DNA from: Escherichia coli
GTDB lineage: Bacteria; Pseudomonadota; Gammaproteobacteria; Enterobacterales; Enterobacteriaceae
NCBI RefSeq assembly: GCF_003334815.1
Contig: NZ_QOWO01000004.1
Reading direction: 5' to 3' (one strand)
DNA length: 64,000 bases
Shown: positions 17,101 through 20,100 of the stretch, piece by piece
Layout: the number at the start of each line of letters is the position of its first letter
Numbering within the stretch: position 1 is the first letter of the stretch
Program-made: the position numbers

Positions 17101-20100
17101 GGATGTTATGGCGTACCTGGCGCGGCGAACGCAACTGGCTGGAGAATATGCACGAGTATGATCATGAACATCATCACCACGATCACGAAGATCACCACGA
17201 CCATGGACATCATCACCATCACGAACATGGCGAGTATCAGGATGCCCATGCACGAGCCCATGCCAATGATATTAAACGACGCTTTGATGGTAGAGAGGTC
17301 ACCAACTGGCAAATTTTGTTATTTGGCTTAACAGGTGGTCTTATCCCCTGTCCGGCAGCAATTACCGTGCTGTTGATTTGCATTCAGTTGAAAGCCCTGA
17401 CACTGGGCGCAACACTGGTCGTCAGTTTCAGCATTGGCCTGGCGTTAACGCTTGTCACCGTAGGCGTTGGCGCAGCAATCAGCGTTCAGCAGGTCGCAAA
17501 ACGCTGGAGCGGATTTAACACTCTCGCTAAACGCGCCCCCTATTTTTCCAGTCTGTTGATTGGCTTAGTCGGTGTGTATATGGGCGTACATGGCTTCATG
17601 GGCATAATGCGATAACTCAATCCTTTAGGCTTGCATGTTATCTTCAGCCCAGGATGATTCTTAAATCAGCTATTTCCGCTGACTCTCTGCTCGCTAAGGA
17701 TGCTTTTAGGGCATCCTTTCATTTACACTTTTTACGAAATCATGGGATCACTAACAAAATATCGCTTGTCAGTTATATTGTATGGCAGGAAAGATATGCG
17801 ACTGATATTACAGATCCCCAAAGTGGAGAGTTTATGACCATTAAAAATAAGATGTTGCTGGGTGTGCTTTTGCTGGTTACCAGTGCCGCCTGGGCCGCAC
17901 CAGCCACCGCGGGTTCGACCAATACCTCGGGAATTTCTAAGTATGAGTTAAGTAGTTTCATTGCTGACTTTAAGCATTTCAAACCAGGTGATACCGTCCC
18001 AGAGATGTACCGCACCGATGAGTACAACATTAAGCAGTGGCAGTTACGTAACCTGCCCGCGCCTGATGCCGGGACGCACTGGACCTATATGGGTGGCGCG
18101 TACGTGTTGATCAGCGACACCGACGGTAAAATCATTAAAGCCTACGACGGTGAGATTTTTTATCATCGCTAAAAAAAGCCCCCTCATCATGAGGGGGAAA
18201 TGCAGACACCTTGTTATTTTTTATTATTAGCCACTTGCTCGTCTTGCTTGTTATTAGTCGTATTTCACGTTGATTAATGCGGTTGCCTCCAGTGCGCCAG
18301 ATTTAACTTTGTTTGTATCGTAGACGTAGTAACTGGCAGTTATCGGAATTGAAACCGTTGTATCTGTAAGTTTTGACTTTGCCGCAATTTCTTTTAAATT
18401 TGTGTATCCTTTACTGCTGTTAGTGATATTTAAAAGTGTGACTGACGAACCATTACTTTCAAGAATAAATCCTACGCCATTATCTTCCGCACCTTTCAGT
18501 ATTGTGTTGCTGTTGGTTAACAAGTCAGAACTTGATAAATACACCTGCATTTTCCGTGATGTTTGATTTTGTTGACCTAATAAATTTTTACAACGCAGAA
18601 TAATATCCCCTTGTTTACTATTTATTGTTGCTTTGTTACCTGTGGCTGGTAATTGTGAAACGGGAATACTGTCTAAAGTAATTAATAAATCGTCCGGTTT
18701 ACAGGTTGTGGTTATCGGGTTGTATGACAATGTCAGATTAAAGGAATAGACACCTGCATTTTGTGCCAATGCATTTCTGTAGCTATTTACACATGCATCC
18801 CATGACTTGCCACCTAATAAACACAGTAGAAATTGTACTGCGGCACTCCCGCGTGTCGATGATGAAGCACTGGATAATGTCGCAACTCCATTAATCATCA
18901 CTGAACCGCCGCCCCCCCGCAGAAACATTCACTTTTGCATTACTGGCCGCAGGTGTCACCGTTACCGAATAACCACTGGTGAAACTGGTCTGATTATTTG
19001 ATAACGTGATGTTGTTTTTATTGGTCCATTCAAAATGTAAATTTAATTTAATGGTATCGTTATAAAGTCCAACAATAATATCCGACGGGCTCATAGGGGT
19101 GATAGTATTTGTACTCACGCATGACGAATCATTAAAATTATGCTCATATGTCGCCATTTGTGTTTGAGTAAGTGCAAAATCCCCCTGAACAACCAAATTG
19201 TGCTGAACAGATAACTCACTATAACATGCTGCATAGCTCACTGGCATAACCATCATCATTAATATAAATAGCATTATGCGAATTTTCATAGAACCACCTG
19301 ACTATTACTGGCAAATATAATTTCTACTTTCATCAATCTCTTTACCGAAGGTGATTGTGCATGAAAGTCCTTGTTGCTTATCAATTGCCACATTAACCGC
19401 TGGCGGTACTTCATTGGTGCGAATAAATAACTGACTTCCCTGGCCGACAACGCCAATATTATGACCGTGGATATCATTGACTTCATAACCAAACGTTAAT
19501 GGTTGCCCATCCGCTCTTAACGCTTTTATAAACCAGGGCTTGCGCTGATCGGTATCAAAATTAACCAGTACAACCGCGCCGCGATAAGGTGCGGCAATTT
19601 TCCGGTTACCGCGCAATTCTGCTTCGCTATCGCTTTGCGACACATCCAGCATCAGGTGATTTTCCCGATAAGGTGTCATTCCGTCGTATACCACCACTCC
19701 ATTACGGTTTGTTGTGCGATATTTTTGCCCATTGACATAAGCATTTTTAATTCCTGGCGCATTCATCACAGCAAACGTTTCGGAAAGACGGTTCGCCAGA
19801 TTAACGCCCCCCGACCAGGCGACAATGCCCCCTGAAACACTGGCTCCAGCCTGTCGATAAGTACTCGACTGACTATAACTGCCATTCACTGTCGCAACCG
19901 GCGCGTTCCAGGTCAAATTCGCCCCAGCTGTCGTTTCATTTCCCTGATTCTGATAACTCAGGTTGACCCCATAGTTAAACTGATCCCGGCTTCCAACGGT
20001 TCCTGATAATCCCGTATTATTTGAGGCAAACCCCTGATCATCAAACGTCGTTGAGTTAGACATATATATTTGCCGACGAGGCGTCGTAACGTCATCACCC

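What the first reader, a model, noticed from the sequence alone, without database searches (positions are those of the whole stretch)
17140..17260. RcnA histidine-rich loop encoded by a repetitive cat/cac/gat tract
The loop HEYDHEHHHHDHEDHHDHGHHHHHEH is encoded by near-repetitive triplets and is a likely length-variable region among strains. This is a known feature.
Basis: partly seen in the sequence, partly recalled or inferred. Interest (0 to 1): 0.15.

Follow-up and report, generated by a model that had tools for sequence, protein, structure and literature searches.

The report
RcnA histidine loop, known VNTR marker
This is the histidine-rich cytoplasmic loop of the E. coli nickel/cobalt efflux protein RcnA; its length does differ between strains, but that is already well known, because the same stretch is used as a tandem-repeat typing marker in E. 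coli, Salmonella and Klebsiella.

Summary
Window 16791-17615 (+) encodes a 274-aa RcnA (NCBIfam NF007454 at 557 bits, Pfam NicO). It sits between rcnR and rcnB, and residues 121-146 (17151-17228) read HEYDHEHHHHDHEDHHDHGHHHHHEH exactly as reported.

The interpretation, a strain-variable loop that is already known, is also correct. In 5,366 complete E. coli genomes carrying rcnA I found gene lengths of 786, 804, 810, 822, 825, 840, 846, 852 and 858 nt. Every in-frame indel lies in the His tract.

The locus is an established typing marker. Primers for generic E. coli MLVA locus CVN007 match the window exactly and flank the tract. PulseNet O157 locus VNTR-19 (TR7) maps to the O157 allele of the same loop, where (GACCAC)n runs from n=4 to 10. 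Salmonella STTR5 and a K. pneumoniae MLVA locus lie in the same gene.

One nuance applies to this window. Its allele belongs to the stable class: about 87% of sampled genomes share its 825-nt length. Its DNA repetition is no greater than His/Asp/Glu codons force. Hypervariability is confined to lineages with perfect hexamer arrays.

Verdict: real, ordinary and already known.

The parts
16791..17615 (+). rcnA coding sequence (274 aa plus stop), nickel/cobalt efflux protein
   Evidence: ORF list. NCBIfam NF007454 at 557.5 bits against a cutoff of 195. Pfam NicO PF03824 at 3.1e-69. Identical to genes annotated rcnA in RefSeq.
17115..17312 (+). Central hydrophilic loop (residues about 109-174) between the third and fourth hydrophobic segments; predicted cytoplasmic
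   Evidence: Kyte-Doolittle hydrophobic stretches end at residue 108 and resume at 175. Arg/Lys-rich borders (WRTWRGERNW, DIKRRFDGRE) are read from the translation. The cytoplasmic location is predicted in PMC11247825, which gives the E. coli loop as 67 aa.
17151..17228 (+). His-rich tract HEYDHEHHHHDHEDHHDHGHHHHHEH (16 His, 4 Asp, 4 Glu, 1 Tyr, 1 Gly), the length-polymorphic core
   Evidence: All in-frame indels among 13 compared alleles fall here.
17172..17228 (+). Imperfect period-18 tandem array, 3.2 copies at 74% match; this is the repeat unit that CVN007 counts
   Evidence: TRF. The CVN007 formula (PS-314)/18 comes from PMC8143711.
17168..17179 (+). First copy of the 12-nt direct repeat ACATCATCACCA, the longest exact repeat in the tract
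   Evidence: Strain 2015C-3121 (L001) lacks exactly one copy plus the 27 nt between the two copies, a 39-nt deletion.
17207..17218 (+). Second copy of the 12-nt direct repeat ACATCATCACCA, 39 nt downstream of the first
   Evidence: alignment of the window against L001.
17051..17071 (+). Exact binding site of the CVN007 forward primer (generic E. coli MLVA)
   Evidence: 0 mismatches. Primer sequence from PMC8143711 Table 1.
17399..17419 (-). Exact binding site of the CVN007 reverse primer; the amplicon is 369 bp, which is allele 3
   Evidence: 0 mismatches. Allele arithmetic.
17073..17108 (+). Position orthologous to the PulseNet VNTR-19 forward primer (3 mismatches in this non-O157 allele)
   Evidence: The primer matches the O157-type allele L008 exactly.
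16398..16670 (-). rcnR, the Ni(II)/Co(II)-responsive repressor transcribed divergently from rcnA
   Evidence: NCBIfam NF011613 at 197 bits against a cutoff of 138.
16719..16753 (.). Two RcnR operator sites of the form TACT-G6-N-AGTA (16719-16733 and 16739-16753) in the rcnR-rcnA intergenic region
   Evidence: Read directly. The consensus and the count of two sites are stated in PMC7055735.
17834..18172 (+). rcnB (yohN), the periplasmic accessory protein of the efflux system
   Evidence: ORF. The gene at this position is annotated rcnB in all 14 fetched E. coli loci. There was no NCBIfam hit.

Best explanation
The tract encodes the histidine-rich central loop of the inner-membrane Ni(II)/Co(II) efflux protein RcnA. 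The loop is a hydrophilic linker of about 66 residues between the two halves of a NicO-type permease. It is predicted to face the cytoplasm, where its His/Asp/Glu side chains would bind Ni(II) and Co(II), either delivering them to the transport pathway or buffering them (inferred). Because His, Asp and Glu are each encoded by only CAY, GAY and GAR codons, the DNA is unavoidably cryptically repetitive. It therefore changes length in frame by slipped-strand mispairing or by recombination between short direct repeats. In most E. coli, including this window, mixed CAT/CAC/GAT/GAA codons interrupt the repeats and the length is stable at 27 loop codons, giving an 825-nt gene. Where a perfect hexamer array has arisen, copy number varies quickly; examples are (GACCAC)n in O157:H7 and (CACGAG)n in other lineages. 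This is why the locus serves as an MLVA marker (CVN007, VNTR-19/TR7, and STTR5 in Salmonella). The protein tolerates loop cores of 14 to 38 codons, so the length of the tract is weakly constrained.
For: Identity. Length polymorphism restricted to the loop: gene lengths of 786, 804, 810, 822, 825, 840, 846, 852 and 858 nt, all annotated as intact rcnA genes, with transmembrane parts nearly invariant. Slippage signature: alleles L006, L007 and L008 have no SNPs in the 744 nt outside the loop and differ only by (GACCAC)5, 6 or 7. Among 325 genomes carrying the O157-type allele, n runs from 4 to 10, with sample counts 6, 4, 25, 12, 4, 1, 1 and Simpson D of 0.70. (CACGAG)4, 5 and 7 occur in a second family of roughly 154 genomes. 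Direct-repeat deletion in the window-type allele: L001 has lost 39 nt between the two ACATCATCACCA copies at 17168 and 17207. Stability of the interrupted allele: 103 of 118 systematically sampled genomes are 825 nt (+-1), including K-12, Nissle, ST131-type O25:H4 and O103. Its repetition does not exceed the codon-shuffle null. Known marker status: CVN007 primers match at 17051 and 17399, and VNTR-19 primers match on the O157 allele. EDL933 has n=6, which equals its published TR7 allele of 6. TR7 mutated in serial passage at a combined rate of 1.3e-4 per generation. STTR5 lies in yohM with repeat CACGAC. K. pneumoniae MLVA locus 27 lies in rcnA with 0-19 copies. Loop length also varies across the wider family: plasmid RcnA/NcrC homologues span about 1,104-1,155 nt, and cable-bacteria loops are 100-123 aa.
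Against: No experiment cited or run here shows what the loop does. PMC11247825 states that it is unresolved whether RcnA acts as an exporter or as a chelator through the loop. The cytoplasmic orientation is a prediction. My frequency estimates rest on two 60-row systematic samples and on identity bands, not on a full census. The (CACGAG)n family size of about 154 is approximate, because the query also picked up 825-type alleles at about 84% identity. Whether the length differences are neutral has not been tested.
Confidence: 0.93

Rival explanations
1. The tract in this particular allele is itself a hypermutable contingency locus. It would change length at high frequency and so switch or tune RcnA activity within a population.
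For: TRF detects a period-18 array. One derivative of the window-type allele carries a 39-nt repeat-mediated deletion. The orthologous tract is hypervariable in O157:H7 and in Salmonella.
Against: About 87% of sampled genomes across distant lineages keep exactly 27 loop codons. The repeats are imperfect, with a longest exact repeat of 12 nt, and are no more repetitive than codon shuffles. CVN007 showed a single allele (3) in 87% of isolates in one study and no variation in another. All units are multiples of 3, so no on/off phase switching is possible.
Confidence: 0.05
2. Loop-length variation is adaptive. Different lengths or His counts would set different Ni/Co affinity or efflux capacity and would be selected in different niches, for example the bovine gut for O157:H7.
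For: The loop is the presumed metal-binding element. Salmonella STTR5 alleles cluster at mid-range repeat numbers, which the authors interpret as possible functional constraint. Cable bacteria have a lineage-wide expanded loop. Plasmid-borne homologues carry much longer loops.
Against: Within the near-clonal O157:H7 lineage at least seven lengths coexist with no flanking change. That pattern is what neutral mutation-drift at a microsatellite would produce. No phenotype data link length to resistance, and the mid-range clustering can also arise from length-dependent mutation bias.
Confidence: 0.2
3. The length differences are sequencing or assembly artefacts in a low-complexity region.
For: Two sampled genes of 826 and 824 nt are annotated as frameshifted.
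Against: Those two frameshifts lie at homopolymers at gene positions 139 and 102, not in the loop. All loop indels are multiples of 3 nt, recur in many independent complete genomes (65 genomes at n=7, 77 genomes for the 840-nt allele) and agree with PCR fragment sizing in MLVA studies.
Confidence: 0.01

Closest known systems
E. coli K-12 RcnA (YohM), e.g. WP_000134636.1 in BW25113
   Same: Same gene, same length (825 nt, 274 aa), same rcnR-rcnA-rcnB context and the same 27-codon loop core. Identity is 98.3% at the DNA level.
   Different: There are 14 SNPs, 6 of them in the loop. The window has HEYDHEHHHHDHEDHH where K-12 has HGHDYEHHHHDHEHHH, so 16 His rather than 17. The window also has Leu instead of Phe in FWM(L/F)WRT and Gly instead of Ser in IIIG/S.
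CVN007, locus of the generic E. coli MLVA scheme (Lindstedt et al. 2007, as used in PMC3407997, PMC3877011 and PMC8143711)
   Same: Both published primers match the window exactly and bracket the His tract. The amplicon is 369 bp, which is allele 3, the allele reported in 87% of isolates. The period of 18 agrees with TRF.
   Different: Nothing differs; the window carries the common allele of this marker. I inferred the link between CVN007 and rcnA from primer mapping. None of the papers I could read states it.
PulseNet O157:H7 MLVA locus VNTR-19 (= TR7 = O157-19)
   Same: It lies at the orthologous position in rcnA. The primers map at L008 583-618 and 869-897 and flank the loop. The repeat unit is 6 bp, and EDL933 allele 6 equals (GACCAC)6.
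   Different: The window allele has no perfect hexamer array and lacks the GDNE insertion of the O157-type allele. The forward primer has 3 mismatches and the reverse primer has more than 3. The window is therefore the stable, non-O157 form of the locus.
Salmonella enterica STTR5 (in yohM/rcnA) and K. pneumoniae MLVA locus 27 (in rcnA)
   Same: In both, a 6-bp His-Asp or His-Gly coding repeat inside the RcnA loop serves as a high-diversity typing marker (CACGAC; CATGGT, 0-19 copies). An 18-aa (HD)9 deletion arose during in vivo passage.
   Different: These are other genera with long perfect arrays. I did not compare their sequences with the window here.
Plasmid-borne RcnA and NcrC homologues (IncHI2-type and other plasmids of Enterobacter, Klebsiella and Salmonella) and cable-bacteria RcnA
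   Same: They share the NicO-type permease halves, with 76-85% aa identity over the aligned halves for the enterobacterial plasmid copies, and a central His-rich loop.
   Different: Their loops are roughly 95-110 residues longer, with genes of about 1,104-1,155 nt. The tblastn alignments break into two pieces around the loop.

Membership tests
RcnA / NicO-family Ni-Co efflux permease | Sequence match to the curated family models above their thresholds | tested here: met
   NCBIfam NF007454 at 557.5 bits (cutoff 195) over residues 1-274. Pfam NicO PF03824 at 233.9 bits, E=3.1e-69, over residues 13-273.
RcnA / NicO-family Ni-Co efflux permease | Genomic context: divergent rcnR with TACT-G6-N-AGTA operators, and rcnB downstream | tested here: met
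   rcnR at 16398-16670 (-), NF011613 at 197 bits. Two operator sites at 16719-16733 and 16739-16753 (consensus from PMC7055735). rcnB ORF at 17834-18172, annotated rcnB in all fetched loci.
RcnA / NicO-family Ni-Co efflux permease | Central His-rich hydrophilic loop separating two groups of transmembrane helices | tested here: met
   The hydrophilic region at residues 109-174 lies between hydrophobic stretches. There are 16 His in residues 121-146.
RcnA / NicO-family Ni-Co efflux permease | Ni(II)/Co(II) efflux and resistance activity; metal binding by the loop | not testable with these tools
   Activity is established for K-12 RcnA in the literature (Rodrigue 2005, cited; the paper itself is not held). 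The role of the loop is described as unresolved.
MLVA locus CVN007 (generic E. coli) | Both published primers bind and flank a tandem repeat of the stated period (18 bp) | tested here: met
   Exact matches at 17051-17071 (+) and 17399-17419 (-). TRF period 18 with 3.2 copies. (369-314)/18 = 3.06.
MLVA locus CVN007 (generic E. coli) | Amplicon length differs between strains | tested here: met
   Gene lengths of 786 to 858 nt predict CVN007 values of 0.9 to 4.9. Published profiles show alleles 2, 3 and 4.
Perfect hexanucleotide VNTR (PulseNet VNTR-19/TR7 type) | Head-to-tail array of at least 4 identical 6-bp units | tested here: not met
   The longest period-6 run in the window tract is 12 nt, and the longest exact repeat is 12 nt. 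O157-type alleles have (GACCAC)4-10. The window holds the orthologous locus but not this hypervariable form.
Perfect hexanucleotide VNTR (PulseNet VNTR-19/TR7 type) | VNTR-19 primers bind | tested here: not met
   In the window the forward primer has 3 mismatches and the reverse primer has none within 3 mismatches. Both bind the O157-type allele L008.
Salmonella STTR5 | 6-bp CACGAC repeat inside yohM/rcnA between the two transmembrane domains | not tested
   Literature only. No Salmonella sequence was aligned here.

The most novel reading that the evidence does not exclude
The most novel reading not excluded is that the tract's codon make-up, not only its length, is functional. Of its 26 codons, 21 are NAY codons (His CAY x16, Asp GAY x4, Tyr TAY x1), which are read by queuosine-modified tRNAs. 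Translation of RcnA could therefore be unusually sensitive to queuosine status. That would link the reported Ni/Co-resistance phenotype of a queuosine-deficient E. coli (abstract of PMC9508795) to this loop. Lineage-specific loop lengths would then tune the effect or tune metal-buffering capacity. Nothing here tests this idea, and the cited paper mentions rcnA only as a nickel-induced gene.
Probability: 0.07. Interest if true: 0.45.

Novelty: already known. Interest (0 to 1): 0.08.

Why it matters
The finding matters little as a discovery. The His-rich loop of RcnA was described with the gene in 2005, and its length polymorphism has been used for two decades in MLVA typing of E. coli, O157:H7, Salmonella and Klebsiella. 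This check adds three modest points. First, it makes explicit, by primer mapping, that CVN007 and PulseNet VNTR-19/TR7 are the same physical locus, namely the RcnA loop. Second, it gives a genome-scale picture: about 87% of complete E. coli genomes share one loop length, and the variation is concentrated in lineages where a perfect hexamer array has arisen. Third, it shows how repeat purity, not amino-acid composition, governs instability. Whether loop length affects nickel/cobalt handling remains untested and is only moderately interesting.

Tried and rejected
- The phmmer search against PDB chains returned only weak hits (best E=2e-4). In most of them the loop aligns to the N- or C-terminal His tags of unrelated proteins. 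No RcnA or NicO structure was found, and I treat these hits as artefacts of the His tract.
- A family-specific query for (CACGAG)n alleles also recovered 2,675 825-type alleles at about 84% identity. I could use only the identity bands at 90% or above (154 genomes), so that family's size is approximate.
- Rodrigue et al. 2005 (PMC1070376) is not in the held library. Statements about the original description rest on citations in other papers.
- Searches for 'yohM' plus 'VNTR' and for 'rcnA' plus 'tandem repeat' found the Salmonella and Klebsiella links but nothing for E. coli. I established the E. coli links by mapping published primers instead.
- Substitutions are only weakly enriched in the loop among five 825-nt alleles: 7 of 81 sites against 25 of 744, odds ratio 2.7, P=0.03. 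I do not build on this.
- I did not run the large protein-database searches, structure prediction or metagenome scans. Identity and polymorphism were already settled, and these would not have changed the verdict.
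Full report
**What is there.** The window holds a 274-codon ORF at 16791-17615 on the + strand. Its product contains ...WLENMHEYDHEHHHHDHEDHHDHGHHHHHEHGEYQDAHARAHAND.... 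It is made of CAC x8, CAT x8, GAT x3, GAA x3, and one each of GAG, GAC, TAT and GGA.

The protein matches NCBIfam NF007454 'nickel/cobalt efflux transporter' at 557.5 bits (cutoff 195) over its whole length. It matches Pfam NicO at 3.1e-69.

Upstream and divergent lies rcnR (16398-16670, NF011613 at 197 bits). The intergenic region holds two TACT-G6-N-AGTA RcnR operators at 16719-16733 and 16739-16753 (consensus from PMC7055735). Downstream lies rcnB (17834-18172).

Genes 100% identical to this one are annotated rcnA in RefSeq. The identification as RcnA is secure.

**Is it more than chance?** The histidine richness is: 16 His in 26 residues against 6 in the remaining 248, P about 3e-20 at a 2.3% background.

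The DNA repetitiveness is not beyond what the composition forces.
- TRF does call a period-18 array (17172-17228, 3.2 copies, 74% match) and a period-9 array. The repeat finder finds imperfect 20-mers spaced 9, 12 or 18 nt apart.
- In 5,000 synonymous-codon reassignments and 5,000 codon-order shuffles, three measures stay inside the null distributions. These are the best autocorrelation, the longest exact repeat (12 nt) and the longest period-6 run (12 nt).

In this allele the 'repetitive triplets' are a by-product of encoding His/Asp/Glu with CAY/GAY/GAR. They are not a microsatellite in their own right.

**Is loop length variable among E. coli?** Yes. A megablast of the gene against 5,426 complete E. 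coli genomes found it in 5,366.

An evenly spaced 60-row sample of the ranking contained 49 genes of 825 nt and two frameshifted pseudogenes of 826 and 824 nt. It also contained one gene each of 786, 804, 810, 822, 840, 846, 852 and 858 nt, plus one truncated remnant. A second systematic sample with a different query gave 52 of 59 at 825 nt, plus 840, 804 (two), 810, 846, 852 and 858.

Together, 103 of 118 sampled genomes (87% +-6%) have the window's length. I fetched the eight variants; all are annotated as intact rcnA.

In a protein alignment the transmembrane parts are almost invariant, and every indel falls in the His tract. The two frameshifts lie at homopolymers at gene positions 139 and 102, not in the loop.

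**How the length changes.** Three patterns appear at the DNA level.

1. O157:H7-type alleles carry a perfect (GACCAC)n array encoding (DH)n.
   - The 846-, 852- and 858-nt alleles have no SNPs in the 744 nt outside the loop and differ only by n = 5, 6 or 7.
   - A query specific to this family found it in 325 genomes, with n from 4 to 10.
   - Sample counts for n = 4 to 10 were 6, 4, 25, 12, 4, 1 and 1. Simpson D is 0.70 and the mode is n=6.
2. A second family carries (CACGAG)n encoding (HE)n, with n = 4, 5 or 7 in the alleles I fetched. It occurs in roughly 154 genomes.
3. Interrupted alleles change by rarer events between short imperfect repeats.
   - Strain 2015C-3121 carries the window-type 5' end (HEYDHE) but lacks exactly 39 nt. 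The lost segment is one copy of the 12-nt direct repeat ACATCATCACCA (window 17168-17179 and 17207-17218) plus the 27 nt between the copies.
   - The 840-nt allele, found in 77 genomes, is a K-12-type allele with an imperfect 15-nt duplication.

These are the signatures of slipped-strand mispairing or direct-repeat recombination. Perfect arrays are unstable and interrupted tracts are stable.

**It is a known marker.** The literature search showed that the orthologous tract is used for typing in several organisms.
- It is VNTR locus STTR5 of the standard S. [quoted passage not shown] VNTRDB illustrates it as a genuine VNTR with repeat CACGAC in yohM (PMC1781188).
- It is locus 27 of a K. pneumoniae MLVA, with CATGGT at 0-19 copies within rcnA (PMC3948817).
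- An (HD)9 deletion in rcnA arose during in vivo passage of Salmonella (PMC6760104).

For E. coli I mapped published primers.
- The CVN007 primers (PMC8143711 Table 1) match the window exactly at 17051-17071 (+) and 17399-17419 (-).
  - They bracket the tract and give a 369-bp amplicon. By the published formula (PS-314)/18 this is allele 3.
  - Allele 3 was reported in 87% of isolates (PMC3407997), which agrees with my 87% estimate.
- The PulseNet VNTR-19 primers (= TR7 = O157-19; PMC8461963; synonymy in PMC3768571) match the O157-type allele L008 at 583-618 (exact) and 869-897 (1 mismatch). They flank the (GACCAC)n array.
  - EDL933 has n=6, equal to its published TR7 allele of 6 (PMC3777172).
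  - TR7 changed in serial passage at a combined 1.3e-4 per generation.
- In the window the VNTR-19 forward primer site has 3 mismatches, and the reverse primer has no match within 3 mismatches.

**Beyond E. coli.** tblastn against plasmids found RcnA/NcrC homologues on 884 plasmid records, mainly Enterobacter and Klebsiella. Their two permease halves align at 76-85% identity for the enterobacterial copies. They are separated by a loop that makes the gene about 1,104-1,155 nt long, roughly 95-110 residues longer than here. Cable bacteria have loops of 100-123 aa with 33-53 His (PMC11247825). Loop length is the most plastic feature of the family.

**Mechanism.**
- Shown: gene identity, the position of the tract between hydrophobic segments (residues 109-174), and in-frame length polymorphism with slippage signatures.
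- Inferred: the loop faces the cytoplasm. This rests on the Arg/Lys-rich borders and on a DeepTMHMM prediction reported in PMC11247825. It would bind Ni(II)/Co(II) through His/Asp/Glu side chains, either to feed the permease or to buffer metal.
- Unresolved: PMC11247825 notes that whether RcnA acts as an exporter or as a chelator through this loop is not settled.
- Not tested: whether length matters phenotypically. The coexistence of seven lengths in near-clonal O157:H7 with no flanking change is what neutral microsatellite drift would give.

**Verdict.** The only additions are the explicit equation of CVN007 and VNTR-19/TR7 with the RcnA loop, a genome-scale frequency estimate, and the point that this window carries the stable, interrupted form. 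Interest is low.

Noticed in passing
window 16719-16733 and 16739-16753: There are two G-tract operator sites, TACTGGGGGGTAGTA and TACTGGGGGGGAGTA, in the rcnR-rcnA intergenic region. They match the published RcnR consensus TACT-G6-N-AGTA. The second site reads as a run of seven G.
   Followed up: partly
window 16210-16306 (-): A TPP riboswitch (Rfam RF00059, 71.2 bits) lies upstream of the ORF at 15387-16175 (-), which looks like thiM. It sits immediately beside rcnR.
   Followed up: no
window 35608-35681 and 36216-36291 (+): There are two copies of the OrzO-P antitoxin sRNA (RF02083, 88.8 and 99.9 bits). This suggests a tandem zor-orz type I toxin-antitoxin locus.
   Followed up: no
window 56721-56801 (-): A Peptidase-S11 RNA motif (RF03039, 72.8 bits), a cis-regulatory candidate, is present.
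   Followed up: no
window 17151-17228: Of the 26 loop codons, 21 are NAY codons (His, Asp, Tyr), which are decoded by queuosine-modified tRNAs. A queuosine-deficient E. coli was reported to be more Ni/Co resistant (abstract of PMC9508795), but that paper does not connect the phenotype to the rcnA loop. The possible link is untested.
   Followed up: partly
E. coli genomes: NZ_CP047455.1 strain ZF31, 1234477-1234587: In strain ZF31 only the first 111 nt of rcnA remain, and the match lies under features annotated as a hypothetical protein and yehA. This suggests a deletion removing most of rcnA and rcnB. In addition, 60 of 5,426 genomes have no rcnA match, and a few genomes have two places.
   Followed up: no
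L002 (NZ_CM184317.1) locus 1135-1140; allele found in 77 genomes: The 840-nt allele has a C-to-T change that turns the last sense codon (Arg) into a stop. The annotated protein therefore ends ...GIM instead of ...GIMR.
   Followed up: partly
plasmid collection, NZ_OL790696.1 (4,795,340 bp): The only near-identical 'plasmid' hit for rcnA is a 4.8-Mb record, evidently a chromosome filed as a plasmid in PLSDB. True plasmid copies are the long-loop RcnA/NcrC homologues on large Enterobacter, Klebsiella and Salmonella plasmids.
   Followed up: partly
window 17151-17228 against PDB: The His tract produces spurious phmmer hits to the His tags of unrelated crystallised proteins, with E down to 2e-4. 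This is a caution for automated annotation of His-rich loops.
   Followed up: yes
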